In this document: piece after piece, positions 6,370 to 48,862 of the stretch
How positions within the stretch are numbered: position 1 is the stretch's first letter
Layout: each line of letters starts with the position of its first letter
Source of the DNA: an uncultured Gammaproteobacteria bacterium
GTDB lineage: Bacteria > Patescibacteriota > Patescibacteriia > Patescibacteriales > UBA12465
Length of the DNA stretch: 64,000 nucleotides
NCBI GenBank assembly: GCA_964470695.1
Contig: CAYYDR010000001.1
Coordinates: 75,405-139,404 of the forward strand
Direction: 5' to 3'
Translations under genes and position numbers: made by a program
The notes under the pieces: generated by a model
Databases searched by the model: none
Seen by the model: the letters and a program-made list of their open reading frames with translations, nothing else
What the model was told of the DNA's origin: nothing

Positions 6370-9385
<3,016 letters not shown>

Positions 9386-9523: not shown

Positions 9524-9640
9524 TTCTGGTGGTTTGAGCGGAGGGGTCATACCTGATCCCATCCCGAACTCAGAAGTCAAGCCCTCCAGCGCCGATGATA
9601 CTTGGGCCCGAGCCCTGGGAAAGTAGGTCGCCGCCAGAAC
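9524..9640 (+). rRNA. rrf: 5S ribosomal RNA
   Basis: CCTGATCCCATCCCGAACTCAGAAGTCAAGC and GGGAAAGTAGGTCGCCGCCAG motifs. An extended closing stem CACCATTGTTCTGGTGG / CCGCCAGAACAATGGTG is followed by TTTTTT. Confidence 0.95.
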
Positions 9641-32319: not shown

Positions 32320-32955
32320 ATGGAAAGGTTCGCCAGATCTTTATTTTGGCTGCAAATCGTTCTAGCTTGGGCCTATTCAGTACCCCAAGCTTGGCGACTC
32401 ATCGGAAACACGCAGAGTATCACGGTAACTTTTTATCTGCTCATGTTTCTGTTTATACTATTCAATTTGTCTTTATCAATTAACGCGTTTCTGGTTGATC
32501 ATAAAGAATCTTCAAAGAGAATAGTCTGGATTTATGCTAATTGGACTTTGTTGGTCGGTTTACTTCTGGCTATCGTTTCCTGGAAAGGCGTTTGGAAAAA
32601 TACCGATAACATCGTTTTAATATTAGCATTTGTGGCCACAATCAGTGTGCTTGTTATAGGTTATAAGATGAATCTCTCTTATCGGGATTCAATAATCCGC
32701 GGCATTCTCGCTTGTATTTATAAGGGCGGTCCGCAGCTATATTTAGCCTATTGTATTATTCAGAATCACGGTGCCTCGGATTTAGCGCCACTAGCGGTTT
32801 GGGTGGCCAACTCAACCGCCTTACTGCGTATATATCAGATTAGTTTTTCTATTAGACAATCTGGTTGGACGCGTGATTTACTGGGGTTAGTAATTAGCGA
32901 ATCGGGGAATGAAATAACCTGGATGCTAGTTACTGTTATTTGGCTTTTAGTTTGA
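32320..32955 (+). CDS. Seven-TM membrane protein with two PQ motifs (PQ-loop/SWEET-like, 3+1+3 layout)
   Basis: 211 aa with about 7 hydrophobic helices. P22-Q23 in helix 1 and P138-Q139 in helix 5. SD AGGAG. Confidence 0.45.
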   Translation: MERFARSLFWLQIVLAWAYSVPQAWRLIGNTQSITVTFYLLMFLFILFNLSLSINAFLVDHKESSKRIVWIYANWTLLVGLLLAIVSWKGVWKNTDNIVLILAFVATISVLVIGYKMNLSYRDSIIRGILACIYKGGPQLYLAYCIIQNHGASDLAPLAVWVANSTALLRIYQISFSIRQSGWTRDLLGLVISESGNEITWMLVTVIWLLV

Positions 32956-33041
32956 TAAAGACTGCGATTATGTTTAACATTTTCGGAGTCTTTTTTATTT
33001 TTAATGCACAATTTTTGATTTTATTATATACTATCTTATAT

Positions 33042-33803
33042 ATGGGAAATAATAGAAAAAAGATTTGGCTAGTTGTCGGGTTAATTATCGGGCTGGTGAT
33101 TATTATCTATCTTAATCGCGCTTACGCTAATATTTATAATACCATTGGCGCCGCCAATCTTGAGCCAGTTAATTTAGCTGGTTCGTATTTAGTTTCTAAT
33201 AATATGCCAGACACTACGGAAATAACTTATGTCGCTCTCGGTGATAGCCTGATGGCCGGAGCCGGAGTTGACGCCCCAGAGGAATCTCTGCCTTATTTGT
33301 TAGCGCAAAAAATGTCAGAAACAGGGAAGACGATAGACTTAAAAAATTTCTCTGTCCCGGGCTTTAAGTCATCAGATTTGATAATTGACCTTTTACCAAA
33401 GGCGGTTGCCGCTAATCCGACAGTAGTTACTCTTTTAATCGGGGCGAATGATATTCATAATCAGGTTTCAGAAGAAGATTTTCGTAAAAATTATAGTCAT
33501 ATTCTAGATCGTTTAACTAAGGAAACTCAGGCAAAGATTTATGTCATTAATATCCCTTTTATTGGAGCTGATATAATGATGCTCCCCCCTTACGGCGCTT
33601 ATTTTAAACATCAGACCGAGAAGTTTAATAAAATTATTAAGGAGCTAGCCAGCGAGCGTTCGCTTAGTTATATAGATTTATATTCGCCTTCTTTATCTTT
33701 ATTTCAGAAGCCAGGCGATCATTATAGTTCAGATTTATTTCATCCTTCGGCCCGTGGCTATAAAATATGGGCTGACATAATTTATGATAGTATCAGTAAA
33801 TAA
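33042..33803 (+). CDS. SGNH/GDSL hydrolase with an N-terminal TM anchor
   Basis: Block I ALGDSLMAG, block III GANDI, block V DLFHPS. Start moved to the ATG at 33042 (MGNNRKK). Confidence 0.8.
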   Translation: MGNNRKKIWLVVGLIIGLVIIIYLNRAYANIYNTIGAANLEPVNLAGSYLVSNNMPDTTEITYVALGDSLMAGAGVDAPEESLPYLLAQKMSETGKTIDLKNFSVPGFKSSDLIIDLLPKAVAANPTVVTLLIGANDIHNQVSEEDFRKNYSHILDRLTKETQAKIYVINIPFIGADIMMLPPYGAYFKHQTEKFNKIIKELASERSLSYIDLYSPSLSLFQKPGDHYSSDLFHPSARGYKIWADIIYDSISK

Positions 33804-34881
33804 TCCTATCCAGGCCACCTGGATTTTTTCAATAATTTTAGCCCTAGTTCTTCTGGCGTCTGTTAGGCCGCGCCAAATTAAAGATTGGTTGCCGACGTCT
33901 TTAACTGCCGAACTTAAGGGGTTATCTATTTTGATGATAATTCTTTCCCATGTCGGCTATTTTTTAGTTAGCGATACCCGTTTTCTCTGGCCCCTATCAA
34001 TTATGGCCGGAGTGGGAGTTAATTTGTTTTTATTTTTATCCGGATTCGGCCTAACAGCCAGCCAAATTAAAAAAGATTTGCCGGCCTGGCAATTCTATAA
34101 ACGGCGTTTACTGAAATTATTTATACCATTCTGGCTGATGTTAGGAACATTCTTGGCTCTAGATTATCTATTGCTGAAAATAAGTTACTCCTGGAGTTTT
34201 ATTTGGTCCGCTTTGATTGGTTTATTTAGTCGCGCGGATTTGTATCAAGATTTTAATTCTCCTCTTTGGTATTTTACTTTTATTCTTTTATACTATTTGT
34301 TGTTTCCTTTAGTCTTTTCCCGACGCTGGCCTTGGTTATCAGCTATAATTTTATATTTAGCCGGTTGGGCCCTAGTTAATTGGCCGCCCCAATTTTTTGA
34401 TTATGTTATCCATTTATACAAAGTTCATATTATCGCTTTTCCCTTGGGGGTCTTCTTTGCTTGGGCCATTTCTAAATTTAAACAGCCAAATCTTTTAGCG
34501 GAAACTTGGCTGCGTCGTATCGGACGCTATGTGATAATAGTTTTTTTGTCCCTTATTTTTGTTTGGTCAAATATTAATTCTGGAATCGGTCAAAGCGTTA
34601 ATGCTGAACAGCTGGCGAGCATCTTGGCGGTCGTGTCAATCGTAGGCATATTTATTTTTAAAAGAATAGAAATAAAAAGCCTGTCGCTTTTGGGGATATA
34701 TTCGTACGAAGCTTATCTTTGGCATTGGCCGCTTATGTATAGGCATGATTTATTATATAAATATTGTCCTATTTGGCTGGCAACTTTTTTATATTTAGTT
34801 TTATTGGTTGTTCTGGGCTGGCTCATGTCCAAGATTGCTGACTGGCTAGCTAGGCGTTTGCCAGGAAACCAAAATGGTTAA
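33784..34881 (+). CDS. Acyltransferase family 3 (membrane O-acyltransferase)
   Basis: 365 aa, about 10 TM, LKGLSILMIILSHV motif of the acyltransferase_3 family. Overlaps the SGNH gene end. Confidence 0.75.
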   Translation: MIVSVNNPIQATWIFSIILALVLLASVRPRQIKDWLPTSLTAELKGLSILMIILSHVGYFLVSDTRFLWPLSIMAGVGVNLFLFLSGFGLTASQIKKDLPAWQFYKRRLLKLFIPFWLMLGTFLALDYLLLKISYSWSFIWSALIGLFSRADLYQDFNSPLWYFTFILLYYLLFPLVFSRRWPWLSAIILYLAGWALVNWPPQFFDYVIHLYKVHIIAFPLGVFFAWAISKFKQPNLLAETWLRRIGRYVIIVFLSLIFVWSNINSGIGQSVNAEQLASILAVVSIVGIFIFKRIEIKSLSLLGIYSYEAYLWHWPLMYRHDLLYKYCPIWLATFLYLVLLVVLGWLMSKIADWLARRLPGNQNG

Positions 34882-35792: not shown

Positions 35793-36117
35793 TGCCCCGG
35801 GTCAGAATCGAACTGACGACACAAGGATTTTCCTTGGTAATTGTCTTAAGTTTCCTTAAGGATCGGACTATCTCATCTCCGCTTAAATTATTAAGGACGG
35901 AGTCGGGCGCTCGTGGCGGGGTTATTGTTGGGCTCACCCGCTAGTCTCTACACCTTCCTCAACTCTTTATCCCAGTTGAGGCTTGGCTCGGGATTACCGT
36001 TTTTGTCTTTCTGCAAGACAAATTTAGGCTTCCCCGAATTCACCCGATTTTCATTCTAGTGTTTCCACTAGACGGACCGAAAATCAGTCCTTTGCTCTAC
36101 CACTGAGCTACCGAGGC
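35793..36117 (-). tRNA. tRNA-Phe(GAA) interrupted by a group I intron (exons 36117-36086 and 35832-35793)
   Basis: The exons join to a 72-nt cloverleaf: GCCTCGG acceptor (U4:G69), D arm GCTC-AGTGGTA-GAGC, anticodon stem AAGGA/TCCTT, loop CT|GAAAA, T arm GTCAG-TTCGATT-CTGAC. Confidence 0.85.
35833..36085 (-). mobile_element. Group I self-splicing intron (IC3-like), 253 nt, no internal ORF
   Basis: P1 GGACU/GGUCC with a U.G pair at the splice site, P10 GAAAA/UUUUC, P2 and P9 GAAA tetraloop hairpins, P3 UCGGGUG/CGCCCGA, P7 GACUA/UAGUC, core GAAGGUGUAGAGACUAG, terminal G. Confidence 0.85.
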
Positions 36118-36138
36118 TTGAAAATTTTATTACGGTGG

Positions 36139-37350: not shown

Positions 37351-38217
37351 TTATAATTCGGTAATAACGGCTTGAGTCGGATTAATAATTTTTTGACCTA
37401 AGAATTTTTCCCCTAAATTTTTAAAAGCGTCCGGGTTGTCGGTCGTGTAATATTCACAGCGGGCTTTAGATACAGGAGTTAATTTTAATTCGGGATGTTT
37501 GGTTAAATAATTTGCTAGACTAGCGGATACTATTTCTCCTGGTTGAGGCACGTCTAGGCGAGATCCTAATATTCTTTTTATATCCGGGTATAAGAAAGAG
37601 TAATGAGTACAGCCTAGGATTAAGGCGCTAATCTGTTTGGCTTTAAGAGGGCGAAGGTATTTTTTTAAAATCATTTTTGTTTCTGGCTTGGCTGCCCAGC
37701 CTTCTTCTATTAGGGGGACAAGTAAAGGAGTTTGCTGCTGCTCTACTCGTAGCTGGGGATTTAATTTTTCCAGTTCTGATTTATAGGCGTTAGAGTTAAT
37801 GGTAGCTTTGGTGCCGATGACGCCGACCGCCTTTAAGTTTTTATGATTAGCAATGTTTTCTGCCAAGGGGCGAATAACCCCCAGAATGCGCCGGTGGGGA
37901 TATTTAGCTGGGAGATATTCCTGCTGTAGGCGCCTTAATGCCTGAGCGGAAGCCGTATTACAGGCGATAATAATTAGGTTGCAGCCTTTTTGAAATAAAA
38001 ATTCTACAGCTTCGCGAGTATATTCATAAATTGTTTCAGGAGATTTTTCTCCGTAGGGCAGCCGGGCGTTATCGCCTAGGTAGATATAATTATAATTTGG
38101 CAAATTTTTAAGGAAATATTTTAAAATTGTCAGTCCGCCTAGACCAGAATCAAAAACACCGATGATATTTTGTGGCTGTTTTTCGTTAGCGACCGATTTA
38201 TTTATTCTCGCGGGCAT
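37351..38217 (-). CDS. murI: Glutamate racemase
   Basis: VFDSGLGGLT, IACNTAS and GCTHY catalytic-Cys motifs. Start probably at 38217 (MPARIN), overlapping the murD end. Confidence 0.9.
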   Translation of the reverse strand: MPARINKSVANEKQPQNIIGVFDSGLGGLTILKYFLKNLPNYNYIYLGDNARLPYGEKSPETIYEYTREAVEFLFQKGCNLIIIACNTASAQALRRLQQEYLPAKYPHRRILGVIRPLAENIANHKNLKAVGVIGTKATINSNAYKSELEKLNPQLRVEQQQTPLLVPLIEEGWAAKPETKMILKKYLRPLKAKQISALILGCTHYSFLYPDIKRILGSRLDVPQPGEIVSASLANYLTKHPELKLTPVSKARCEYYTTDNPDAFKNLGEKFLGQKIINPTQAVITEL

Positions 38218-39523
38218 ATTTCTGGAACAGGTCGCCCCGCTCTTTATAATTTTTAAATAATCCAAAGCTAGCGCAGGCCGTTGACAATAGGATAATATCC
38301 CCGCTGGCGCTATGTGCTTTTGCTAGTTTAACCGCTTCTAACATGCTGTTAACTTCTTTAAGTTTAGCGGTTGGAAATTTTATTTTTTGTAATTCATTTT
38401 TTATTCGTGGCGTGGCGTGGCCGGATAATAAAATTAAGAATTTTACCTTAGTTTTTATTGTTTTAGCTAAAGCTTGGAAGTTGGCCCCCTTGTCTGCGCC
38501 GCCCGCGATTAAAATGATTGGCGCGGAGAAAGACTTTAAATCTAAGATAGTGCTTTCGGGCGTTGTAGAAAAACTATTATCAAAGTATTTGACGCCATTT
38601 TTTATGATTACTAATTCCAAGCGATGTTCTAAATTGGTAAAATTAGCAATGGTTTTTTTGTAGTGGGACGTTTTTATTTTTAGCAGCTCGGCTACGGTTA
38701 CTGCCGCCCCGATATTCTCTTGATTAAAATCGCCGGCTAGCTTTGAGGGCAGGGAAATAGCGCCAAAATAAATTACTCGGCTTTTTAATTTGGCTGCTTT
38801 TATTTTTGATTTTAGATTTTTATTAGCTATCAGATATTGGTTAGGTTTATTTTTGGCGATATTTAATTTCGCTTGCCAGTAGTTATTGTAAGAAGAGTGA
38901 AAATTAGGATTGTTCGGATCGGCGGGAGCTAAATGTTCTTTAAATAAATTGGTGACGACGGCGATTTTAGGAGAATATTCCAGATCTTCTAGTTGGAAAC
39001 TGGATAATTCTAAAATAACAAAATCTTGCGGTTTGATTTTGGTTAAAAATGATAAGGGGGCGATGCCGATGTTGCCGCCTAGCCAGACCTTTTTATTGGC
39101 GGCGCGCAAAATTTTATAAATTAAACTGGCTGTTGTGCCTTTGCCTTTAGTGCCAGTAACGCCGATGATGTTTTTAGTCGGGCAAAGAGCCATGAAGATA
39201 TTTAAGGGGCTAGAAATCTTAGTTCGGCCCTTTTTAAGAGCTTCTTGAACGCCGGGACAGGCCATGGGCCAGCCGGGAGAGCGGAATAAAATATCAAATT
39301 TATATAAATCTTGATTAAAAGACGCTTCTAACTGGTAGTTTATTTTTAGATTTAAATTTTGCGGCAAAGGCAAATATTTTTTTGCCCGAAAATCACAGAT
39401 TGTTATTTCTGCTGGCGACTTAGCTCTATTTAGCAGGGTTAATAAAGCTTGGTTATCTAAACCGAGCCCTAAAAGAGCTATCTTTTTTTTGTCTAGTTTT
39501 TTAAGCTGTGTTTGCCAAGGCAT
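38198..39523 (-). CDS. murD: UDP-N-acetylmuramoylalanine--D-glutamate ligase
   Basis: N-terminal Rossmann-like domain (IALLGLG), P-loop GVTGTKGKGTT, Mur ligase middle and C-terminal domains. Start likely at 39523 (MPWQTQ). Confidence 0.8.
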   Translation of the reverse strand: MPWQTQLKKLDKKKIALLGLGLDNQALLTLLNRAKSPAEITICDFRAKKYLPLPQNLNLKINYQLEASFNQDLYKFDILFRSPGWPMACPGVQEALKKGRTKISSPLNIFMALCPTKNIIGVTGTKGKGTTASLIYKILRAANKKVWLGGNIGIAPLSFLTKIKPQDFVILELSSFQLEDLEYSPKIAVVTNLFKEHLAPADPNNPNFHSSYNNYWQAKLNIAKNKPNQYLIANKNLKSKIKAAKLKSRVIYFGAISLPSKLAGDFNQENIGAAVTVAELLKIKTSHYKKTIANFTNLEHRLELVIIKNGVKYFDNSFSTTPESTILDLKSFSAPIILIAGGADKGANFQALAKTIKTKVKFLILLSGHATPRIKNELQKIKFPTAKLKEVNSMLEAVKLAKAHSASGDIILLSTACASFGLFKNYKERGDLFQKYARENK

Positions 39524-39534
39524 AATTAACCGGT

Positions 39535-42309
39535 TTATTTTAATTCTTCCCAATTATCGCCAATATTTTCATCAACTATAATCGGTACTCTGAGTTTTAA
39601 CCCCTCCTGCATTATTTTTTTAATCTCTTTAACGTAGGACTCAATCTTATCGGTTTTTATTTCAAAAATCAATTCATCGTGTACTTGTAGTAATAAACGA
39701 ATATTGTCTTCGTGTCCTTTAATCAGGTCGGCTATTTTTATCATCGCCATTTTAATTAAGTCGGCTGCTGTACCCTGAATCGGGGTATTGATAGCCATGC
39801 GTTCGGCGCTTTTTTTAATCATCGGTATACTGGAGTTTATTTCAGCTAGGGGGCGGCGGCGTCCAAATAAAGTAACCGCGCAAAGGTTTTCGCGAGCCTC
39901 CTTAATGGAATTATCCATCATTTTCTTGATGCCGGGGTAGGCCTCAAAATATTTTTTAATAAATTCGCTCGCCTGCCAGTAGGGGATTCCGGCGCCCTGG
40001 CTTAAGCCGTGCGGTCCCTGTCCGTAAAGAATGCCAAAGTTAATCGCCTTAGCTTCACGCCTCATTTTCTTAGTGACTTCTTCTAGCTTTACGCCGTTGA
40101 TTTCCGCGGCCGTTGCCGTATGAATATCCTCGCCTTCATTAAAGGCTTTAATCATTTTTTTATCGCCTGACATATGGGCCGCTAGACGCAGCTCAATCTG
40201 TGAATAATCAAAACTAACTAGTTTATAACTCTCGGCCGCCACGAAGGCACTTCTAATTTTTTGTCCTTCTTCGGTTCGGGTGGGAATATTTTGTAAATTA
40301 GGTTCGGTTGAAGAAAGCCGTCCCGTCGCCGCGATAGTCTGGTTAAAGCTGGTATGAATGCGGCCGGTTTTAGGATTAATCATTTTGGGCAGGGCGTTCA
40401 AATAGGTTGTTTGGAGTTTATTCAATTCCCGGTAGCTTTGCAGTAACGGGATAATAGGATGCAGATCTTGTAGCTTAGCGAGCTCATCTTCCGCCGTAGA
40501 GAAGCCGGTTTTTGTCTTTTTTAAATTCGTGGTTGGGATAGTTAATTTTTCAAAAAGGATCTCCTTTAACTGTTTGGTAGAATTAATATTAAATTTCGTT
40601 TTAGCTAACTTATGAATCCCTTTTTCTAGCTTAGCTAATTTATCGCCGACCTCCTTATCTAATTTTTGGAGAGGAGCGCTCTCCATTTTAATGCCGTTAT
40701 TTTCCATAGCGCCCAAAACAGGGATGAGGGGCATTTCAATTTTGGTGAATAACTCAGTCAGGTTATCTTCTTTAATTCGCGGACTAAAAACTTTTACTAG
40801 GCGGTTAGTAAAATCAGCATCTTCGCACGAATAAAGGCTTAATTTAGTCGGATCCAGGCTTTTAAAGTCAATTGTTAATTGTTCGGGCTGGGTATCGGCT
40901 AGATTAGTTTTGCTAATTTTTTCAAATCCCAGTTCAGTAAAGGCCAGTGAGTCTAAATTATGTTGGCGGTTAGAAGGGTTTAATAGGTAGGAGGCAATCA
41001 TGGTGTCAAAATTCAGGCCGTTTAATTCCACGCCCTGGTTTTTTAAAACGCGCCAATCAAATTTAAGGTTATGTCCGTATTTTTTTATTTTTTTATTTTC
41101 TAAAATTGGCCGTAATTCTTCCAGCCGCTCTTTAGTAGCTAAGACAAAATAAGCTTCGCCTTCTTTCCAGGAAAAACTTAAACCCAAAATATCGGAAGTA
41201 ATAGGATCTAGCCCCGAGGTTTCGGTATCAAGGGTAAAAGACTCTTGGCCTTTTAATTTTTTTAGGAAAGCGGCAAATTTTTTATCATCGTCAACTAATT
41301 GGTAATCAAATTTTTTAAGATTGCGATTAAATTTAGTTTCGTCGGAGCTGGCCGATCCTTTTTGGCTGTCATCTGCTTCTGCACCCTCTGATTGATTATG
41401 ATCTTTATTAATTTTATCGCGTAGCTCCTTTACTTTTGTTAATAGAGATTTAAATTCAAACTCGCTGAAGAGTGTCATGACACGCTCTAAATCAAAAGAA
41501 GAGAATTCTATATTATCAAGCGTAAACTTTATGGGCGCGGCTAAGTTTATGGTAGCCAATTGTTGGCTTAAATAAGCATTATCCTTGCTAGCTTTTAGTA
41601 GCTCTAGAATGCGCGGTTTAATTTTGGAGCTATTTTTTTCAACGGCTTGGTAGACTCCATCTAAATTAGCAAATTCAATTAGTAATTCACTAGCTGTTTT
41701 TTCACCTATCCCTTTAACGCCGGGGATGTTATCACTGGGGTCGCCACGCAAGGCTTTATAATCAATAATTTGATCAGGTCTTAGGCCATAGCGCTCTTTT
41801 ACTTGGGCGGCATCGTACAAGACGCTATCTGACAAGCCGCGGCTCATGGTGTAGACTTTAGTTTTTTCATTTATTAATTGCAGAGTATCTAAATCACCGG
41901 TGATGATTACTCGGTCTAGATTTTTAATATTTTTAGTCTGGTCACAGATAGTGCCTATTAAGTCGTCCGCCTCGTAACCGTCAAGCTCAAAAATAGGGAT
42001 GTTAAAGGCGGTTGCCACCCTTTTTACTAGAGGAATTTGTTCATATAACTCATCGGGCGCCTTAACGCGAGTTGCCTTATAGTCAACATAGGCCTCATGG
42101 CGGAAAGTCGGCCCCTTTTTATCTAAAGTCAAAACAACATATTCGGGATGGAATTCATTAATGGCTTTGAGTAGAAAGGAAGTAAAGCCATAGACGGCAT
42201 TAACTAGCAGGCCATTTTTGGTTCGTAGAGTAGGCGGAAGGGCGTGAAAACTGCGATGAATAAGGGCATTTCCGTCAACAATAATTAGTTTTGGTTTAGT
42301 TTTAGACAT
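39535..42309 (-). CDS. polA: DNA polymerase I (5'-3' exo, 3'-5' exo-like and polymerase domains)
   Basis: 924 aa. FEN-like N-terminus (LIIVDGNALIHRSFHA), motif A DYSQIELR, motif B RREAKAINFGILYG, motif C QVHDEL. Confidence 0.97.
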   Translation of the reverse strand: MSKTKPKLIIVDGNALIHRSFHALPPTLRTKNGLLVNAVYGFTSFLLKAINEFHPEYVVLTLDKKGPTFRHEAYVDYKATRVKAPDELYEQIPLVKRVATAFNIPIFELDGYEADDLIGTICDQTKNIKNLDRVIITGDLDTLQLINEKTKVYTMSRGLSDSVLYDAAQVKERYGLRPDQIIDYKALRGDPSDNIPGVKGIGEKTASELLIEFANLDGVYQAVEKNSSKIKPRILELLKASKDNAYLSQQLATINLAAPIKFTLDNIEFSSFDLERVMTLFSEFEFKSLLTKVKELRDKINKDHNQSEGAEADDSQKGSASSDETKFNRNLKKFDYQLVDDDKKFAAFLKKLKGQESFTLDTETSGLDPITSDILGLSFSWKEGEAYFVLATKERLEELRPILENKKIKKYGHNLKFDWRVLKNQGVELNGLNFDTMIASYLLNPSNRQHNLDSLAFTELGFEKISKTNLADTQPEQLTIDFKSLDPTKLSLYSCEDADFTNRLVKVFSPRIKEDNLTELFTKIEMPLIPVLGAMENNGIKMESAPLQKLDKEVGDKLAKLEKGIHKLAKTKFNINSTKQLKEILFEKLTIPTTNLKKTKTGFSTAEDELAKLQDLHPIIPLLQSYRELNKLQTTYLNALPKMINPKTGRIHTSFNQTIAATGRLSSTEPNLQNIPTRTEEGQKIRSAFVAAESYKLVSFDYSQIELRLAAHMSGDKKMIKAFNEGEDIHTATAAEINGVKLEEVTKKMRREAKAINFGILYGQGPHGLSQGAGIPYWQASEFIKKYFEAYPGIKKMMDNSIKEARENLCAVTLFGRRRPLAEINSSIPMIKKSAERMAINTPIQGTAADLIKMAMIKIADLIKGHEDNIRLLLQVHDELIFEIKTDKIESYVKEIKKIMQEGLKLRVPIIVDENIGDNWEELK

Positions 42310-42953: not shown

Positions 42954-43694
42954 ATGATAAAAAAAGAGATTATAATTTCCGGCCTGAAAGTTAGTTATCT
43001 AATTAGCGCCGATTTCAATCCTAATCAAGCTATAGTTTTTTTGCCTGGCTGGAAATCTCCGGTTGATTTATTTTGTTCAATCATGGGCGATACCCCTAAT
43101 TTATTAGCAGTTAATCTGCCTGGTTGGGGCGGTAGCGAAAAAGCTAAGGCAACCTGGGGTCTAAAGGAATATGCCGTTTTTGTTAAGGAATTTTTGCAGA
43201 GACTAGGAATTAATAAGCCGGTTTTGATCGGCCATAGCATAGGCGGGACAATTGCGGTTGAGTATTTAAGCCAGGGCGGAGAAGCCCAGAAGCTAATTAT
43301 TATCAGCGGCGCTATTATTAGAGAAAAGTCAGTTAAGGTCAAGGCCTTAATGATGGGAGCTAAAATATTTCGTTTTTGTCTGCCCTTTATTAATAAAAAA
43401 TGGCGGGCGCGTTTAGCCGGCCAGACGCTCAGCCCTGATTATGTTCAGGCCGGCGAACTGGAAGAAGTTTACAAAAAGGTTATTGGTGAAGATAGACAAG
43501 AAGTATTTTCTAGGCTAAAATTACCTATTATTTTAATTTGGGGTCGCGATGATAAAGATACCCCTTATGCTCAGGCCGAAAAATTAAGCAGTCTCCAGCC
43601 CCTGGCTATTCTAGAGCCCATTATTGGGGCGGGCCACTATTGTTTTTTAGATCAGCCGCAAAAATTTCGGGAAGCAATTATTAAATTTTTATGA
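42954..43694 (+). CDS. Alpha/beta-fold hydrolase
   Basis: Nucleophile elbow GHSIGG, HG-like oxyanion region (FLPGW), C-terminal GAGHY. Confidence 0.75.
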   Translation: MIKKEIIISGLKVSYLISADFNPNQAIVFLPGWKSPVDLFCSIMGDTPNLLAVNLPGWGGSEKAKATWGLKEYAVFVKEFLQRLGINKPVLIGHSIGGTIAVEYLSQGGEAQKLIIISGAIIREKSVKVKALMMGAKIFRFCLPFINKKWRARLAGQTLSPDYVQAGELEEVYKKVIGEDRQEVFSRLKLPIILIWGRDDKDTPYAQAEKLSSLQPLAILEPIIGAGHYCFLDQPQKFREAIIKFL

Positions 43695-45061
43695 ATATAG
43701 TTCGTAAATTAATTTATATTTTACAGAAGGAGTCTTATGACCCCAGACGGTTCTTGTCTTTTGTTTATCATAATTGGCGCTGGTGGTCGCTGGAAAAAAG
43801 ACAGGCGATTGATTGGACGAATAAAGCGAGAGCCCTATATTTTGCTTTGTGGATATTAGTGGCAGCCCTACTTATTTTATTTGGATATTTTTGGCATTTC
43901 TGGGTGCTATTATTTTTGGTTATTTTGATTCCAGCCTTGCCTCTATTAGCTTTATTAGTTTTGTTACTATTTTATCCCTTTGATTATATTTTAAAAAAGA
44001 GGGTTATCAATAAAGCCAAGCAGACTTTAGCTAAGACTAGAGTGAAAGTTATCGGTATAACCGGCAGTTATGGTAAGACTAGCCTCAAGGAAATTTTAGC
44101 CATCGTCTTAGGCAGTGGATTCAAGGTAATAAAAACCCCCAATAATGTTAATACTGATTTAGGAGTAGCTTACTTTATTTTGTCTCATCAGGCCGAGATT
44201 GCTACGGCTGATTTTTTTATTGTGGAAATGGGCGCCTACCAAATAGGCGACATTGCTAAAGTCTGTAATCTAGTCAGTCCGGATTATTCTTTCTTAACTG
44301 GTATTAATGAATCGCATCTAGAAAGATTTGGCAGCCTGCAAAATACTATTAAAGCTAAATTTGAGCTAGGCGAAAGGACTGCCAAGAGAGTGGTTTTAAA
44401 TTTTACCGATCAGAATGTTAAAGATAACTATTCCCATTTTAAATTACCAGCCCATCTTGATGTAGATAATTCCTGGGTCAGCAATATTAAAGTTTTGCCG
44501 AATTTTACTGGCTTATCTTTTGAATATGCCGGACATATTTTCTCTACTCCCTGGTTAGCGCAGCATAATATTATTCTAATAGTTATGGCGCTCGCTTTAG
44601 CCGCAGAACTTGGCTTGGATTTATCTAGAGCCAAGGCCCCTCTAGCCTCCGCTCCTTTTATTAAGAATCGTCTGGAGCCGATTTGGAACGCCGTTTCCCG
44701 GTTAATGATTATTGATGATAGTTATAATGGTAATTTTTCCGGTTTTGTCAGCGGCCTAGAAGTTTTAGATAGAGCTCCTGGCCGAAAGCTAGTCATTACT
44801 CCGGGACTGGTAGAGCTAGGAAAAAAGAAGGAAGAACGGCACCGAGAAATTGCCCGTTTATATGCTTCAAAAAATTTAGATTTAGTGCTATTAATTAAGA
44901 ATAGCGCTACTAGTTATATTATTGATGAATTTATTAAAATAGGTTTTTCTAAATATAAAGTATACCTTGACGCTTTGTCTGCTCATCAAGATCTCGGCTC
45001 GGTATTAAAGGAGGGGGATACAATTATTTTTCAGAATGATTGGCCGGATAATTATAAATAA
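43691..45061 (+). CDS. murF: MurF-family ligase with a hydrophobic N-terminal region replacing the usual N-domain
   Basis: P-loop GITGSYGKTS, VEMGAYQIGDI, TGINESHLERFGS, DDSYNGN. The first ~110 aa contain 2-3 TM-like helices. Confidence 0.7.
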   Translation: MNIVRKLIYILQKESYDPRRFLSFVYHNWRWWSLEKRQAIDWTNKARALYFALWILVAALLILFGYFWHFWVLLFLVILIPALPLLALLVLLLFYPFDYILKKRVINKAKQTLAKTRVKVIGITGSYGKTSLKEILAIVLGSGFKVIKTPNNVNTDLGVAYFILSHQAEIATADFFIVEMGAYQIGDIAKVCNLVSPDYSFLTGINESHLERFGSLQNTIKAKFELGERTAKRVVLNFTDQNVKDNYSHFKLPAHLDVDNSWVSNIKVLPNFTGLSFEYAGHIFSTPWLAQHNIILIVMALALAAELGLDLSRAKAPLASAPFIKNRLEPIWNAVSRLMIIDDSYNGNFSGFVSGLEVLDRAPGRKLVITPGLVELGKKKEERHREIARLYASKNLDLVLLIKNSATSYIIDEFIKIGFSKYKVYLDALSAHQDLGSVLKEGDTIIFQNDWPDNYK

Positions 45062-45065
45062 ATAT

Positions 45066-46247
45066 ATGAAAGAAATAAAAAATATTGGCGTTTTTTTCGG
45101 CGGGAAAAGTCCGGAGCATGATATATCTGTTATTACCGGTCAGTTGATTATTTCCGTTTTGAAAAAAATGCCCGAGTATAATGTCATTCCGGTTTATTTA
45201 GATAAGCAAGAAAAGTTTTTTATTGCTGGCGATCTGGGCAGTTTGTCTTTTTTTAGCGTTGAAGGCTACCAGAATAAATTAACTAAGTTCGGGGCCTATA
45301 GCCTGGATTTAGATTTGTCTAAGGATTGTTTAGTATTTAGTAAGGGGAATTTATTATCTAAGAAAACAATTAAGATTGACCTAGTTTTTCCCGCCTTCCA
45401 CGGCAATTTAGGTGAGGATGGTTCTATGCAGGGGTTATTAAATATTTTTGGTGTTCCTTATGTCGGTTGCGAAGTAGCCGCTTCAGGGATTGCTATGAAT
45501 AAGATATTAACTAAGATTTTTTATCAGGGTTTAGGGGTGCCGACTACGAAATTTCTTTCCTATAACCGTTCCCAGTGGGAAGAAAAAAAGAATATTATTT
45601 TAGGAGAGATTAAAAATAATCTGAAGTGGCCGGTTTTTGTAAAACCCCCTCATTTAGGGTCATCTATTGGTATTACTAAGGTGACTAAAGAACCAGACTT
45701 AGAACAGGCCTGTGAAGTGGCCTTGCATTATGATGACGAGCTTTTGGTTGAAGAGAGCGTAGAAAATTTAGTGGATGTAACTTGCGCGGTTCGCGGTTAT
45801 AAAAATCCGCAGGCTTCCTTACTGCAGGAATCATCTTTTAACTCAGATTTGTTTAGTTATGAAGATAAATATTTAAATGACGGCGGCGCACAGTTAGGAC
45901 AAGCTGATAAAAAAATAATTATTCCGGCTAATTTAGATGAAGTTACTACTAAAAATATTCAGGAGGCTTCTTTAAAAATATTTCAGTCCCTGGGTTGCTC
46001 AGGAATTGCTCGGTTTGATTTCCTCTATAATAGTGTTACCAAGCAATATTTTGCGAATGAAATTAATCCATTTCCCGGCACGTTATATCATCATTTATGG
46101 CAGAAGAGCGGGGTAGAGATTGATCAACTGGTGCGCGGGCTAATTAATGATGCCTTGGTTCGTCAGTCCGAAAAAGAGAACTCAACTTATAGTTTTTCTT
46201 CTGAGGTTTTAGGGCGGTTAAAGGGCTTGAAATTAGCGAGGAAGTAG
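45066..46247 (+). CDS. ddl: D-alanine--D-alanine ligase
   Basis: GVFFGGKSPEHDIS, HGNLGEDGSMQGLL, ATP-grasp C-terminus (ANEINPFPG). Start at the ATG at 45066. Confidence 0.9.
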   Translation: MKEIKNIGVFFGGKSPEHDISVITGQLIISVLKKMPEYNVIPVYLDKQEKFFIAGDLGSLSFFSVEGYQNKLTKFGAYSLDLDLSKDCLVFSKGNLLSKKTIKIDLVFPAFHGNLGEDGSMQGLLNIFGVPYVGCEVAASGIAMNKILTKIFYQGLGVPTTKFLSYNRSQWEEKKNIILGEIKNNLKWPVFVKPPHLGSSIGITKVTKEPDLEQACEVALHYDDELLVEESVENLVDVTCAVRGYKNPQASLLQESSFNSDLFSYEDKYLNDGGAQLGQADKKIIIPANLDEVTTKNIQEASLKIFQSLGCSGIARFDFLYNSVTKQYFANEINPFPGTLYHHLWQKSGVEIDQLVRGLINDALVRQSEKENSTYSFSSEVLGRLKGLKLARK

Positions 46248-46284: not shown

Positions 46285-46317
46285 AAAAACCCGACTTTTT
46301 GAAGAGCCGGGTTTTTG
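46285..46317. terminator. Bidirectional terminator (same AAAAACCCG...CGGGTTTTT family)
   Basis: AAAAACCCGAC-loop-GCCGGGTTTTT. Confidence 0.65.
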
Positions 46318-46336: not shown

Positions 46337-46846
46337 TTATCCTTGGAGATGGTTTCTGGTTGGCTCCGCAGCTTCTATCTTTTGATTTAGAGCCAGTTCA
46401 ATTATGGGTCTTAGGTCGCCGTTTTTGTCACGATAAATAATAATATCGTGAAACAAGATGTGAATAATATATTCATTATCAACTACGGCGATATTAGAAA
46501 TCCGGCATTCTTCAGGAACAGATTTTAATATCTTTTGAGCCAGCTTTTTCCCGGTACCCCAGTAATGTAGTTTTAATACATTAATTTTTGTTGCATTTTG
46601 ATAATAAATCAAGATATCAGCGGTGAATCTTTCCAGATTAAATAGTGACAAAAGCGGCAGATCGTTTCTTTCCAGACAGAAATAAATTTCCTTACCGTCT
46701 ACTTTTTTTACCGCGTTAGAAATGATTATATTATCAGTTAATAAGTGGCGCTTATCGCCAGCCGCCAATAGGAAAGGGAACTCCTTAATAATTTTCAGGT
46801 TTTTCTCTCTTTGTTGCTCGCGCGGGCTTTGATTATTGTTTTTCAT
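46337..46846 (-). CDS. Hypothetical protein (orphan)
   Basis: 169-aa ORF with a strong SD AGGAGGTG 4 nt before the ATG. No recognisable motif. Confidence 0.5.
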   Translation of the reverse strand: MKNNNQSPREQQREKNLKIIKEFPFLLAAGDKRHLLTDNIIISNAVKKVDGKEIYFCLERNDLPLLSLFNLERFTADILIYYQNATKINVLKLHYWGTGKKLAQKILKSVPEECRISNIAVVDNEYIIHILFHDIIIYRDKNGDLRPIIELALNQKIEAAEPTRNHLQG

Positions 46847-47563: not shown

Positions 47564-48862
47564 TTACCTTATATAATTAAGTGGATTATATCTCACTCCG
47601 TTAACTAGCACTTCAAAGTGCAGATGAGAGCCGGTTGATCTTCCGGTTGATCCCATGGCCGCAATATTTTCCCCCTTTTCAACTTCATCTCCTACTTTAA
47701 CAAAAAGTTTTGTCATGTGTCCATAGCGGGTTTTGCGTCCTCCGCCGTGATTAATTACAATCGTGTTACCATACCCGCCGTTGTAACCACCTCGGGCAAT
47801 TTCTACAATGCCATCATCAGCAGCATATATTGGCGTGCCTACTTTATTACCGATATCAACGCCGTTGTGGCGCCAAGAGAAATATTGGGTAATGCGATAT
47901 CCCTGGGTAGGCCAGGCCATCTTTCCGCCGCCGGCTTTGACGGTAGGAGATTTAATTAAATCGCGAATAGCGGATATTCCCGTATAGCTACTACCAGTTC
48001 GGCTGCTAGTAACTCTAGTTTGTTCAATTATTTTTTTAGCACCAGGGACTATTATTTTCTGTCCGATTTTCAGTCCGGCCTCAAGATTGTTGCAGCTTAA
48101 TATTTTATCAGCTTCTACTCCGTACTTATTAGCAATTTTGGAGACAGTGTCGCCGGATTTTACAGTATATAATATTCCGCTATAAGGTAAAATTATTAAA
48201 TTATCGCCTGGCCGGATTAAGCCATAAGAATTTAAATTATTGGCCCACAATATAGTATTAATAGTTAAACTAAACTTTCTAGCAATAGTGCTGACAGTAT
48301 CGCCATTTTGAACAGTATAGTTTATGATGGTAGTTCTTTGTTGGGCGGTAGCTCCCTCATCGTTCTTTTTTGCGGTCGTAGCTAAAGGTTTGAATATTAA
48401 ATCGCCATCCTCGTTAAAAACAAGTTGGTTATTTTGGTTGGCGTCGTTTTCGTCAATTGTATTAAGAGATTTTTCTAGAGTACAGGAGTCAGCTAGGTAT
48501 TTTTCTTTGCCGGCCGCGAGTAAACTATTTAAGGAGCGCCCCTCTTCTATTAATTCCTCGTCAAAGTTATAACCAAGATCTGACGGGATGAGATCGGCCA
48601 TGACGGTTTTTGATATTTTGGATTGCGCGTCACTGGGTTTTTGTTGGCTGATGATATTAAAAGTAATTATTGCGATAGTCAATAAAAATATAAAAAAATA
48701 GACTAGCCGGTTGCGAGATATTTCACCCACGGTTTTATTGGTCAGATCATTTTTTTTCAGACGGAAGGTGCCGTAATATATTTTAACTAATATTTTAGAA
48801 AAAAACCCTCCAAAGATTAAACGAAAAAACCCGGAACTGGCCCGGAATATGTTGGAAATCAA
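47564..48862 (-). CDS. LysM-domain M23 family metallopeptidase (peptidoglycan endopeptidase)
   Basis: Two LysM repeats (YTVQNGDTVSTIARKF, YTVKSGDTVSKIANKY), M23 motifs HNGVDI and GSHLHFEV. Start codon uncertain (TTG at 48862). Confidence 0.85.
   Translation of the reverse strand: MISNIFRASSGFFRLIFGGFFSKILVKIYYGTFRLKKNDLTNKTVGEISRNRLVYFFIFLLTIAIITFNIISQQKPSDAQSKISKTVMADLIPSDLGYNFDEELIEEGRSLNSLLAAGKEKYLADSCTLEKSLNTIDENDANQNNQLVFNEDGDLIFKPLATTAKKNDEGATAQQRTTIINYTVQNGDTVSTIARKFSLTINTILWANNLNSYGLIRPGDNLIILPYSGILYTVKSGDTVSKIANKYGVEADKILSCNNLEAGLKIGQKIIVPGAKKIIEQTRVTSSRTGSSYTGISAIRDLIKSPTVKAGGGKMAWPTQGYRITQYFSWRHNGVDIGNKVGTPIYAADDGIVEIARGGYNGGYGNTIVINHGGGRKTRYGHMTKLFVKVGDEVEKGENIAAMGSTGRSTGSHLHFEVLVNGVRYNPLNYIR

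What the first reader, a model, noticed from the sequence alone, without database searches (positions are those of the whole stretch)
43691..45061. MurF-family ligase whose UDP-binding N-domain is replaced by transmembrane-like helices
The central and C-terminal Mur ligase domains are clear: GITGSYGKTS, VEMGAYQIGDI, TGINESHLERFGS, DDSYNGN. The first ~110 aa are different. They read WWSLEKRQ...ALYFALWILVAALLILFGYFWHFWVLLFLVILIPALPLLALLVLLLFYPF, which is 2-3 hydrophobic helices and not the soluble N-terminal domain that contacts the UDP-MurNAc nucleotide in canonical MurF.

The gene is translationally coupled to an upstream alpha/beta hydrolase (ATGA overlap at 43691-43694) and is followed by ddl. 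This implies a membrane-tethered D-Ala-D-Ala-adding enzyme, or a ligase acting on a different acceptor, for example a lipid-linked one.
Basis: partly seen in the sequence, partly recalled or inferred. Interest (0 to 1): 0.55.

Follow-up and report, generated by a model that had tools for sequence, protein, structure and literature searches.

The report
Membrane-anchored MurF cell-wall ligase variant
The enzyme that adds the last two amino acids to the bacterial cell-wall building block is normally soluble, but here it is built into the membrane and paired with an unexplained helper hydrolase, and several poorly studied bacterial phyla share this design, which the papers I searched do not describe.

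Summary
ORF 43691..45061 (456 aa) has MurF-type central and C-terminal Mur ligase domains. The roughly 65-100 residue MurF N-domain is absent. In its place are a strongly conserved 45-residue cytoplasmic segment and a two-helix membrane hairpin (about residues 47-97).

This is not an oddity of one gene. In 80 species-representative loci, 73 MurF-like genes carry a homologous membrane N-module with 2 to 5 helices and shared Q-x3-Y and (W/F)-T-x-K/R motifs. They come from CPR/Patescibacteria, Anaerolineae (including cultured Aggregatilinea lenta), Dormibacterota and uncultured Clostridia.

A serine alpha/beta hydrolase with an invariant Ser-Asp-His triad lies directly upstream in 62 of 69 cases, often with a 4-nt overlap. 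It is never upstream of the 7 canonical murF genes. Ddl lies directly downstream in 32 of 65 cases.

The ligase cores form a clade sister to canonical MurF. Neither Pfam nor NCBIfam has a model for the N-module, and no searched paper describes it.

Best reading: a membrane-anchored D-Ala-D-Ala-adding enzyme, most likely the organism's working MurF. Three things are undetermined: whether the acceptor is UDP-linked or lipid-linked, what the hydrolase does, and whether a second canonical MurF exists in the genome. I class it as a new variant of a known kind.

The parts
42954..43694 (+). Alpha/beta-fold serine hydrolase (246 aa), the conserved upstream partner. Its catalytic triad is Ser95 (in GHSIGG), Asp200 and His228.
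   Evidence: Pfam Abhydrolase_1 and Abhydrolase_6, E about 1e-16. The triad is invariant in 62 orthologues next to membrane-type murF genes. The hydrolase sits at position -1 in 62 of 69 such loci and in 0 of 7 canonical loci. Only generic esterase/lipase/C-C hydrolase matches turn up in PDB and NCBIfam.
43691..43694 (+). ATGA: the murF-like start codon overlaps the hydrolase stop codon, an arrangement typical of translational coupling.
   Evidence: Read directly from the sequence. The same 4-nt overlap occurs in 23 related loci, and a 1-nt overlap in 6 more.
43691..45061 (+). The whole membrane-anchored MurF-type ligase gene (456 aa).
43691..43825 (+). Residues 1-45: conserved juxtamembrane segment, inferred to be cytoplasmic. 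It has two short helices (2-13 and 18-27) carrying the motifs L-x-Y-I-L-Q-x-E-x-Y-x3-R-F and R-x4-W-T-x-K.
   Evidence: Invariant residues in A1/A2. Helices from the AF2 model. No Pfam family matches. Homologous to the N-module of Anaerolineae proteins by hhalign, probability 88.6%, E 2.6e-6. Q-x3-Y is present in 69 of 73 membrane-type proteins; among the 7 canonical ones the bare Q-x3-Y pattern matches one (L075), while the stricter pattern requiring a preceding hydrophobic residue matches none.
43829..43891 (+). Predicted transmembrane helix 1 (about residues 47-67).
   Evidence: Hydropathy. The column-average hydropathy is high for 48-65, with K45 and R47 on the flank.
43904..43981 (+). Predicted transmembrane helix 2 (about residues 72-97). 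It has invariant P84 and ends in the invariant P96-x-D98 motif at the cytoplasmic boundary.
   Evidence: The family-wide polar, indel-bearing turn at residues 66-72 separates it from helix 1. The homologous pair of helices is resolved as a hairpin in the A. lenta model.
43982..44044 (+). Basic linker helix (about residues 98-118, with K102 invariant) joining the membrane hairpin to the P-loop. It corresponds to the helix that precedes the P-loop in canonical MurF.
   Evidence: The TIGR01143 alignment starts at residue 109. The PDB profile alignments start at query position about 94-104. The AF2 helix runs 44-114.
44057..44599 (+). Mur ligase central (ATP-binding) domain, residues 123-303. It has the P-loop G125-S131, E179, H209 and K223, which aligns with the lysine of E. 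coli MurF's KAKGEI.
   Evidence: Pfam PF08245. Invariant columns. Alignment to MurF 3zl8 and 1gg4.
44669..45031 (+). Mur ligase C-terminal domain, residues 327-447, which binds the incoming substrate. It has DDSYNGN and TPG-x-VELG.
   Evidence: Pfam PF02875. Aligned to the MurF C-domain. Foldseek best hits are MurF, TM-score 0.66-0.70.
45066..46247 (+). [quoted passage not shown] An alternative upstream in-frame ATG lies at 45036.
   Evidence: Pfam Dala_Dala_lig_N and Dala_Dala_lig_C. NCBIfam NF002528 scores 286.7 bits, above its cutoff of 262. Ddl is at +1 in 32 of 65 related loci.
46285..46316 (.). GC-rich hairpin flanked by A- and T-runs, between ddl and the convergent gene 46337..46846. 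It probably marks the end of the three-gene operon.
   Evidence: Terminator-like site. The total count of such sites in the region is no higher than in shuffled sequence, so this is weak evidence.

Best explanation
The gene encodes a membrane-anchored variant of MurF, the ATP-dependent ligase that adds D-Ala-D-Ala to the muramyl-tripeptide cell-wall precursor.

Shown:
- The central and C-terminal domains are MurF-type and keep the catalytic residues.
- The soluble N-domain, which in canonical Mur ligases holds the uridine and contacts the pyrophosphate, is missing.
- It is replaced by an unrelated, conserved module: a 45-residue aromatic and basic segment followed by two hydrophobic helices.
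- The same module, sometimes with 1-3 extra helices, heads MurF-like ligases across CPR, Anaerolineae, Dormibacterota and uncultured Clostridia.
- These genes sit in peptidoglycan operons: hydrolase-murF-ddl here, murA-hydrolase-murF-ddl in Aggregatilinea lenta, hydrolase-murF-mraY in a Chloroflexota chromosome, and murC-ddl-murF-ftsQ in Dormibacterota.

Inferred:
- Both ends of the hairpin face the cytoplasm, which pins the ligase to the inner face of the membrane.
- The invariant polar and aromatic residues at that face (Q12, E14, Y16, R20, R37, W42, T43, K45, D98, K102) take over the N-domain's job of holding the diphosphate carrier end of the substrate.
- D-Ala-D-Ala comes from the co-transcribed Ddl.
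- The product is handed directly to membrane-bound MraY.
- I take this to be the organism's working MurF, with UDP-MurNAc-tripeptide as the more likely acceptor.

The co-translated Ser-Asp-His hydrolase is a genuine functional partner, but its reaction is unknown. Candidates are trimming or editing of the peptide stem, or freeing a blocked carboxylate.
For: MurF identity of the core:
- TIGR01143 is the top NCBIfam hit, 201.7 bits, E 2e-59, far ahead of murD, murC and murE.
- A profile search of PDB sequences gives MurF entries 3zl8, 1gg4, 4cvk and 4qdi at E 1e-41 to 1e-34, against 1e-12 or worse for MurD, MurE and MurT.
- The AF2 model has pLDDT 89.9 and pTM 0.85. Its best Foldseek hits are MurF, E 4e-23, TM-score 0.66-0.70.
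- The P-loop, E179, H209, K223 and DDxYNxN are invariant.

Membrane module:
- Hydropathy.
- A family-wide polar turn, positive-inside charge pattern and indels confined to the turn.
- A homologous hairpin is resolved in the A. lenta model, pLDDT 87.3.
- N-modules of CPR and Chloroflexota are homologous: hhalign probability 88.6%, E 2.6e-6.
- The module is found only at the N-terminus of MurF-like proteins. 291 clusters at 50% identity match it, and the short hits are truncated genes that still carry the P-loop.

Peptidoglycan context:
-.
- Hydrolase adjacency is 62 of 69 for membrane-type loci against 0 of 7 for canonical loci.

Housekeeping role:
- The ligase-core tree groups membrane-type proteins by taxonomy, as a clade sister to canonical MurF.
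- The window holds one MurD, one MurI, one MurE-like gene and this gene.
- The genome is small, on a 677,688-bp contig.
- NCBI and JGI already name these proteins MurF.
Against: - No biochemical data exist for any member.
- The score on TIGR01143 is below the curated cutoff (201.7 against 288.6; 228 and 232 bits for the two relatives tested).
- I could not search any whole genome for a second, canonical MurF.
- Loss of the uridine-binding domain is what is seen in MurT, which acts on lipid-linked rather than UDP-linked precursors (PMC6085368). A UDP acceptor is therefore not the only reasonable expectation.
- A near-obligate catalytic hydrolase partner has no role in the textbook MurF reaction.
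- AF2 draws residues 44-114 of the window protein as one continuous helix rather than a hairpin.
- The tree is a neighbour-joining tree without support values, with only 7 canonical sequences.
- Two Saccharimonadales loci carry two membrane-type ligases in tandem, which shows that the family can diversify in function.
Confidence: 0.62

Rival explanations
1. Same enzyme chemistry but a lipid-linked acceptor. The ligase adds D-Ala-D-Ala to undecaprenyl-pyrophosphoryl-MurNAc-tripeptide (lipid I or lipid II with a tripeptide stem) after MraY has acted. The membrane module binds the polyprenyl-pyrophosphate, and the hydrolase works on the same lipid intermediate. This would reorder the last steps of precursor synthesis in these phyla.
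For: - The uridine-binding N-domain is gone and is replaced by a membrane-embedded module with invariant polar residues at the cytoplasmic interface.
- MurT provides the precedent. It is a Mur ligase homologue that acts on lipid I and II but not on UDP precursors, and lipid II lacks the uridine that the Mur ligase N-domain binds. It works with a catalytic-triad partner, GatD (PMC6085368).
- The MurE-like gene in this window also lacks its N-domain and starts with a short hydrophobic segment.
- The hydrolase family's nearest named relatives include lipases, esterases and an ornithine-lipid O-acyltransferase.
Against: - The substrate-facing motifs of the central domain align with those of canonical MurF, for example N-x-N-T-D-L-G against N-L-N-N-D-I-G. 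These do not distinguish between carriers.
- In a Chloroflexota chromosome the gene sits immediately before mraY, the canonical order.
- If an N-domain-less MurE works on a soluble UDP substrate, loss of the N-domain would not imply a lipid substrate.
- MraY would have to accept a tripeptide precursor efficiently, which is not its known preference (my own knowledge, not tested here).
Confidence: 0.18
2. A paralogue with a different job. The genome also has a canonical MurF. This membrane ligase, together with the hydrolase, attaches D-Ala-D-Ala or another amine to some other carboxylate at the membrane, for example a stem-peptide side branch, a recycled muropeptide or a wall polymer.
For: - It forms a clade distinct from canonical MurF.
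- It scores below the family cutoff.
- It has an unexplained partner enzyme.
- Tandem membrane-type ligases occur in Saccharimonadales, L030 and L036.
- Members occur in loci labelled as Actinobacteria (L065, L067), a phylum in which canonical dcw clusters with murF are usual (my own knowledge).
Against: - The contexts are core peptidoglycan operons: murA, ddl, mraY, murC and ftsQ.
- The phylogeny follows taxonomy, as expected of an essential vertically inherited gene.
- CPR genomes under 1 Mb rarely keep paralogues (my own knowledge).
- No second MurF-like gene lies in the 64-kb window or in any of the 73 membrane-type loci within +-4 genes. The other Mur ligases found there are of MurC, MurD or MurE type, or the tandem membrane-type copy.
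Confidence: 0.15
3. Annotation artefact. The real start is internal, near the P-loop, and the hydrophobic N-terminus is untranslated read-through or a separate small membrane-protein gene fused by a sequencing error.
For: None beyond the unusual architecture.
Against: - The full-length architecture is reproduced in hundreds of independent assemblies with conserved length.
- The N-terminal 45 residues carry 11 invariant positions.
- The start codon overlaps the upstream stop in the same way in 23 loci.
Confidence: 0.01

Closest known systems
Canonical MurF (UDP-MurNAc-tripeptide:D-alanyl-D-alanine ligase; TIGR01143; structures 1GG4, 3ZL8, 4CVK, 4QF5)
   Same: - The central and C-terminal domains are of the same type.
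- The P-loop, Mg-binding Glu and His, the lysine aligned with the carbamylated Lys, and the DDxYNxN and ELG motifs are present.
- MurF is the best sequence and structure match.
- The gene is linked to ddl and other peptidoglycan genes.
   Different: - The soluble N-domain is absent. Matches start at profile position 54-65.
- A conserved membrane module takes its place.
- The score is below the curated cutoff.
- It forms a separate clade.
- It has a near-obligate alpha/beta hydrolase neighbour that canonical murF genes lack.
MurT/GatD lipid II isoglutaminyl synthase
   Same: It is a Mur ligase homologue that works at the membrane without a uridine-binding N-domain and is paired with a catalytic-triad hydrolytic partner encoded in the same operon (PMC6085368).
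   Different: - MurT is soluble or peripheral, has its own C-terminal DUF1727 domain, and amidates D-Glu.
- Its partner is a Cys-His glutaminase, not a Ser-Asp-His alpha/beta hydrolase.
- MurT sequences match the profile of this family only weakly, E 9e-7 to 3e-5, against 1e-41 for MurF.
Natural fusions that tether Mur enzymes to membrane proteins (MurD-FtsW and MraY-MurG chimeras)
   Same: These are precedents for a cytoplasmic peptidoglycan-precursor enzyme being physically joined to a membrane protein, which has been taken as support for a membrane-proximal Mur complex (PMC10214165).
   Different: - Those are fusions of two complete known enzymes. Here the membrane part is a small novel module with no other known occurrence, and it replaces a domain rather than adding to it.
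- That survey considered proteins over 600 aa from named species, so it would not have seen this family.
CapB/PgsB poly-gamma-glutamate synthetase (Mur ligase superfamily, membrane-associated complex)
   Same: It is a member of the Mur ligase superfamily that lacks a UDP-binding N-domain and works in a membrane complex (my own knowledge, not tested here).
   Different: It belongs to a different branch, nearer to folylpolyglutamate synthase according to PMC11915815. It has a different substrate and different partners. It does not appear among the matches of this protein.

Membership tests
MurF (TIGR01143 / COG0770) | Mur ligase central ATP-binding domain with P-loop, catalytic Glu and His, and the lysine that is carbamylated in MurD, MurE and MurF | tested here: met
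   PF08245 at residues 123-303, E 4e-23. G125-S131, E179, H209 and K223 are invariant in 24 homologues. K223 aligns with E. coli MurF KAKGEI.
MurF (TIGR01143 / COG0770) | Mur ligase C-terminal domain with MurF-type motifs (DDxYNANP, ELG) | tested here: met
   PF02875 at residues 327-447 scores 30.8 bits against a cutoff of 28.4. DDSYNGN and VELG align with MurF 3zl8 and 1gg4.
MurF (TIGR01143 / COG0770) | Closer to MurF than to any other Mur ligase family, by sequence and by fold | tested here: met
   NCBIfam gives murF 201.7 bits, against murD 60, murC 36 and murE 31. Foldseek ranks 1-10 are all MurF.
MurF (TIGR01143 / COG0770) | Whole-protein score at or above the curated family cutoff | tested here: not met
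   201.7 bits against a cutoff of 288.6. The relatives score 228.2 and 231.7 bits.
MurF (TIGR01143 / COG0770) | N-terminal MurF domain that binds the UDP end of the substrate | tested here: not met
   The profile match begins at position 65 of 418. Residues 1-108 have no Pfam match. That region is a conserved segment plus two hydrophobic helices.
MurF (TIGR01143 / COG0770) | Genomic association with ddl and other peptidoglycan-synthesis genes | tested here: met
   ddl lies 4 nt downstream. Related loci carry murA, mraY, murC, ftsQ and femAB.
MurF (TIGR01143 / COG0770) | [quoted passage not shown] | not testable with these tools
   This needs an enzyme assay.
MurF (TIGR01143 / COG0770) | Is the only MurF of the genome (orthologue, not paralogue) | not testable with these tools
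   Only 64 kb of a 677,688-bp contig is available. No other MurF-like gene is in the window.
MurT-type lipid II-modifying ligase | MurT-specific C-terminal domain (DUF1727) and a GatD glutaminase partner | tested here: not met
   No MurT family appears among the NCBIfam hits of this protein. MurT chains match only at E 9e-7 to 3e-5. The partner is an alpha/beta hydrolase.
Integral membrane protein (helical hairpin, N-in/C-in) | Two hydrophobic segments of at least 18 residues separated by a short turn, with positive charge on the cytoplasmic flanks | tested here: met
   Segments are 48-65 and 73-97. Position 69 is polar in 96% of sequences and an indel lies next to it. K45, R47 and K102 are conserved. 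The homologous helices 105-132 and 137-188 are separate in the A. lenta model.
Integral membrane protein (helical hairpin, N-in/C-in) | Prediction by a dedicated topology predictor, or experimental topology | not testable with these tools
   TMHMM and DeepTMHMM are not available. AF2 drew residues 44-114 of the window protein as one helix.

The most novel reading that the evidence does not exclude
In CPR bacteria, Anaerolineae, Dormibacterota and some Clostridia, the peptide stem of the wall precursor is completed at the membrane on a lipid-linked intermediate. After MraY has acted, the membrane-embedded MurF-type ligase and its obligate serine-hydrolase partner (and possibly the N-domain-less MurE as well) act on undecaprenyl-PP-MurNAc-peptide, in the way MurT/GatD acts on lipid II. 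The textbook order of steps, in which all four Mur ligases act in the cytoplasm before MraY, would then not hold in these phyla. The shared module would also be a rare genomic character linking CPR with Chloroflexota and Dormibacterota.
Probability: 0.17. Interest if true: 0.9.

Novelty: new variant of a known kind. Interest (0 to 1): 0.68.

Why it matters
MurF is a textbook soluble enzyme and an antibiotic target. Its N-domain is regarded as the part that recognises the nucleotide precursor.

Finding that whole phyla use a MurF built into the membrane, without that domain and always next to a catalytic hydrolase, has four consequences:
1. It shows that the N-domain is dispensable or replaceable.
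2. It gives direct sequence support to the old idea that the last cytoplasmic steps happen at the membrane next to MraY.
3. It raises a testable possibility that the acceptor is lipid-linked.
4. It identifies an unassigned hydrolase as a probable new player in precursor synthesis.

The questions are open to experiment. A cultured organism, Aggregatilinea lenta, carries the module as murA-hydrolase-murF-ddl (protein WP_119072387.1).

The module also shows a clear presence/absence pattern. It is shared by CPR, Chloroflexota and Dormibacterota, lineages that some phylogenomic studies place together (my own knowledge). Current family models miss the N-module and score these proteins below the MurF cutoff.

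Tried and rejected
1. Wrong start or fused ORF. Rejected: the length and the N-terminal sequence are conserved in hundreds of assemblies.
2. A known family for the N-module. Pfam finds nothing significant at E up to 1, either for the 2-helix version or for eight multi-helix versions.
3. The N-module in other architectures or as a standalone protein. An exhaustive profile search found it only at the N-terminus of MurF-like proteins. The short hits are truncated genes, and 28 of the 32 that are at least 140 aa still carry the P-loop.
4. A specific function for the hydrolase. PDB and NCBIfam profile searches return only generic alpha/beta hydrolases: esterases, PHB depolymerase, BioH/MenH-like enzymes and C-C hydrolases. 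All are far below the family cutoffs.
5. Promoter and terminator scan of the operon. Counts are no higher than in shuffled sequence, so only the hairpin after ddl is noted.
6. Literature. Six full-text searches and three papers read found no description of a membrane-anchored MurF or of the hydrolase-murF pairing.
7. Looking up the genome record. Only a 9.7-kb Logan contig was returned, so the rest of the 677,688-bp contig could not be scanned for a second MurF.
8. A dcw cluster next to murE in the window. The MurE-like gene lies between ftsK and rpoB, so it says nothing about an empty murF slot.
9. Taxon labels of some ENA co-assembly MAGs. L001 labelled 'Gammaproteobacteria' and L020 labelled 'Parasutterella' contradict the sequence and the synteny. 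I did not use them as evidence of distribution.
Full report
**The observation**

The window carries an ORF at 43691..45061 (+) of 456 aa. Pfam places a Mur ligase central domain at residues 123-303 and a Mur ligase C-terminal domain at 327-447.

NCBIfam's MurF model TIGR01143 is by far the best family match: 201.7 bits, E 2e-59. It aligns residues 109-447 to profile positions 65-403 of 418. The score is below the curated cutoff of 288.6 because the first 64 profile positions have no counterpart.

Kyte-Doolittle windows above 1.6 run without a break from residue 45 to 103. The start codon overlaps the stop of an upstream alpha/beta hydrolase gene (42954..43694) in the sequence ATGA. A D-Ala-D-Ala ligase gene follows 4 nt after the stop, if the ATG at 45066 is used.

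**Not a mis-called start**

A search of 5.8 billion proteins returned more than 120 homologues that cover 99-100% of the query at 452-458 aa, down to 48% identity. They come from Falkowbacteria, Moranbacteria, Parcubacteria and other Patescibacteria. Where named, the sources call them MurF or 'Mur ligase family protein'.

In an alignment of 24 of these, the first 45 residues are among the best conserved in the protein. L7, Y9, L11, Q12, Y16, F21, W31, R37, W42, T43 and K45 are invariant. The hydrophobic stretch varies in sequence but not in character, and it contains invariant P84 and P96, invariant D98 and invariant K102.

**Topology**

Column-averaged hydropathy splits the stretch into two segments, about 48-65 and 73-97. 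Between them is a turn in which position 69 is polar in 96% of sequences, and the family's only indels fall at the turn (next to position 69) and a few residues into the second hydrophobic segment (after position 76). Net positive charge sits on both outer flanks and none in the turn.

This is the signature of a helical hairpin with both ends in the cytoplasm, where an ATP-dependent ligase has to be.

AlphaFold2 gave a confident model, pLDDT 89.9 and pTM 0.85, but drew residues 44-114 as one continuous helix. At 54 hydrophobic residues that is too long for a single membrane crossing. I therefore treat the shape of this part of the model as unresolved.

In the model of the Aggregatilinea lenta relative (pLDDT 87.3), the homologous helices are separate, at 105-132 and 137-188.

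**Identity of the catalytic part**

A profile of the family finds MurF structures first among PDB sequences: 3zl8 at E 6.5e-41, 1gg4 at 2e-38, and 4cvk, 4qdi and 2am1. MurD, MurE and MurT are many orders of magnitude weaker.

Foldseek with the model gives MurF in ranks 1-10. The best is 3zl8, E 3.7e-23, TM-score 0.66-0.70 over about 363 aligned columns.

The P-loop, E179, H209, K223 (aligned with the lysine of E. coli MurF's KAKGEI), DDSYNGN and VELG are invariant or nearly so.

**A broad family, not a CPR curiosity**

Scanning one genome per GTDB species with the family alignment returned 80 loci. I re-derived the MurF-like ORF in each.
- 73 have hydrophobic N-termini, and 69 of those carry a Q-x3-Y motif. 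The 7 without hydrophobic N-termini are canonical murF genes, most of them sitting in an rsmH-ftsI-(murE)-murF-mraY-murD cluster.
- The Falkowbacteria and Saccharibacteria type has the 2-helix form.
- Parcubacteria-type CPR, uncultured Clostridia/Christensenellaceae, Anaerolineae, another Chloroflexota chromosome, Dormibacterota and two actinobacterial-looking loci have 3-5 helices and 500-630 aa.

All share the same ordered motifs:
- [hydrophobic]-Q-x-(E/G)-x-Y-x3-R-(F/Y/W);
- a basic patch followed by (W/F/L)-T-x-(K/R)-A just before the last two helices;
- P-x-(D/E) where the last helix leaves the membrane.

Profile-profile comparison of the CPR N-module with the Anaerolineae N-module gives probability 88.6%, E 2.6e-6. 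It aligns motif to motif, with a 46-residue insertion that corresponds to an extra helical pair.

Pfam has no family for either form.

An exhaustive HMM search of 1.84 billion representative proteins with the 2-helix module found 291 clusters at E of 1e-3 or better, 62 of them at 1e-10 or better. The module is always at the N-terminus. 96 of the 147 newly returned proteins among the 150 listed hits are 428-575 aa. The short ones are truncated genes: 28 of the 32 that are at least 140 aa still show the P-loop.

A neighbour-joining tree of ligase cores puts all membrane-type proteins in one clade, sister to the canonical MurFs. Inside that clade the groups follow taxonomy. The tree has no support values and few canonical sequences, so it is only indicative.

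**Gene context**

I clustered the neighbours of the 80 loci and checked cluster representatives against Pfam and NCBIfam.
- The alpha/beta hydrolase is immediately upstream in 62 of the 69 membrane-type loci that have an upstream gene, and in none of the 7 canonical loci.
- In 23 loci the two genes overlap by 4 nt, and in 6 by 1 nt.
- Ser95, Asp200 and His228 of the hydrolase are invariant in 62 sequences, so it is an enzyme and not a scaffold.
- Its nearest relatives in PDB and NCBIfam are generic, and none comes near a family cutoff.
- Ddl is the next gene in 32 of 65 loci.

Other arrangements:
- seryl- and lysyl-tRNA synthetase genes, then hydrolase, membrane murF, a DegT-family aminotransferase, FemAB and FtsQ, in Parcubacteria-type CPR;
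- tsaE-tsaB-rimI-hydrolase-murF-ddl in Christensenellaceae-type MAGs;
- hydrolase-murF-mraY, with ddl two genes further on, in a Chloroflexota chromosome (L040);
- murC-ddl-murF-ftsQ in Dormibacterota (L073);
- murA-hydrolase-murF-ddl in the cultured Aggregatilinea lenta. There the protein is WP_119072387.1 and MurA scores 334 bits against a cutoff of 297.

In the window itself, peptidoglycan genes are scattered. MurD and MurI lie at 37351..39553 (-), an M23 peptidase at 47564..48862 (-), and a MurE-like gene at 60693..62126. There is one gene of each ligase type and no second MurF.

**How it most likely works**

Shown:
- It is a MurF-type ligase core.
- The nucleotide-binding N-domain has been lost.
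- A conserved membrane module stands in its place.
- The gene is co-transcribed with Ddl and with a catalytic hydrolase.

Established knowledge: the N-domain of Mur ligases binds the uridine and contacts the pyrophosphate. MurT, which acts on lipid I and II and not on UDP precursors, works on a substrate that lacks the uridine (PMC6085368; PMC11915815).

Inferred:
- The hairpin pins the ligase to the inner leaflet.
- The invariant aromatic, polar and basic residues at the interface form the replacement binding site for the diphosphate end of the muramyl-tripeptide.
- D-Ala-D-Ala from Ddl is added by the usual acyl-phosphate mechanism.
- The pentapeptide product is released next to MraY.

I judge this to be the organism's working MurF, with about 0.8 probability for that point taken alone. 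A UDP-linked acceptor is more likely than a lipid-linked one, at roughly 3:1. My reasons are the canonical gene order with mraY, and the fact that a MurE-like enzyme in the same genome also lacks its N-domain while having only a short hydrophobic N-terminus.

The hydrolase's reaction is unknown. Its near-obligate presence is the strongest sign that the step differs in some way from the textbook reaction.

**Rivals**

- A lipid-linked acceptor (0.18).
- A paralogue with another acceptor, coexisting with a canonical MurF (0.15).
- An annotation artefact (0.01, refuted).

The decisive tests are whole-genome scans for a second MurF, and assays of the reconstituted enzyme on UDP-linked and lipid-linked tripeptide with and without the hydrolase.

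**Comparison with what is known, and novelty**

The protein works like MurF and is most closely related to it. It fails two defining features of the curated family: the N-domain and the cutoff score. It has two features the family lacks: the membrane module and the hydrolase partner.

It resembles MurT/GatD in design but not in sequence. Natural MurD-FtsW and MraY-MurG fusions show that tethering Mur enzymes to the membrane has precedent (PMC10214165), but those join complete known proteins.

Six full-text searches and three papers read gave no description of this architecture or of the gene pair. Databases simply label the proteins MurF.

I class it as a new variant of a known kind, and of above-average interest for three reasons. 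It concerns a textbook pathway and drug target. It spans several phyla. It can be tested in a cultured organism.

Noticed in passing
window 60693..62126 (+): The MurE-like ligase (477 aa) scores 321.9 bits on TIGR01085, above the cutoff of 257.3, but matches only from profile position 70 onwards. It therefore also lacks the canonical N-terminal domain. Its first 24 or so residues (MLNILKKIIPVWIFRILQPIYHFL) are hydrophobic or amphipathic and lead straight into the pre-P-loop helix. It lies between ftsK and rpoB, not in a dcw cluster.
   Followed up: partly
window about 35800..36125 (-): A tRNA-Phe(GAA) gene appears to be split in its anticodon loop by a group I intron (Rfam RF00028, 89 bits, at 35844..36095). 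The exons GCCTCGGTAGCTCAGTGGTAGAGCAAAGGACTGA and AAATCCTTGTGTCGTCAGTTCGATTCTGACCCGGGGCA join into a normal cloverleaf. ARAGORN did not call this tRNA.
   Followed up: partly
L030 3503..5182 and L036 2351..4030: In two Saccharimonadales genomes a second membrane-type Mur ligase (559 aa) sits directly upstream of the hydrolase and membrane-murF pair. Its N-region contains 'LKNSGYSAWRYFGW' and it is 23% identical to the window protein over about 380 aa. The family has therefore duplicated in tandem there, and the role of the second copy is unknown.
   Followed up: no
L018 2416..10729 and about 18 similar loci (e.g. L026, L032, L037, L043, L052, L054, L060, L061): In Parcubacteria-type CPR the operon reads seryl-tRNA synthetase (often preceded by lysyl-tRNA synthetase), hydrolase, membrane murF, DegT-family aminotransferase, FemAB-family transferase and FtsQ. 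Aminoacyl-tRNA synthetase genes next to a FemAB gene hint at a tRNA-dependent branch on the stem peptide.
   Followed up: no
window 43044..43046 (hydrolase residue 31): The window's hydrolase has Pro at the position of the 'HG' oxyanion-hole motif, where 90% of the 62 orthologues have His (LPGW instead of LHGW). The catalytic triad is intact.
   Followed up: no
window 60214..60675 (FtsK residues 723-876): The FtsK ORF (58048..60678) continues for about 154 residues beyond its gamma domain, with no Pfam match.
   Followed up: no
window 6373..9639: 23S rRNA (6373..9381) and 5S rRNA (9525..9639) are present. No 16S gene lies upstream; a protein-coding ORF ends at 5981. The rRNA operon therefore appears to be unlinked.
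   Followed up: no
window 32940..34881 (+): A GDSL/SGNH hydrolase gene (32940..33803) overlaps an Acyl_transf_3 membrane acyltransferase gene (33784..34881). Together they look like a split OatA-type O-acetyltransferase pair.
   Followed up: no
L001, L010, L020, L021, L050, L052 (record titles): Several ENA co-assembly MAGs are labelled 'Gammaproteobacteria' or 'Parasutterella'. Their loci are 71% identical and syntenic with Falkowbacteria, or syntenic with Christensenellaceae MAGs. The taxon labels look wrong.
   Followed up: no
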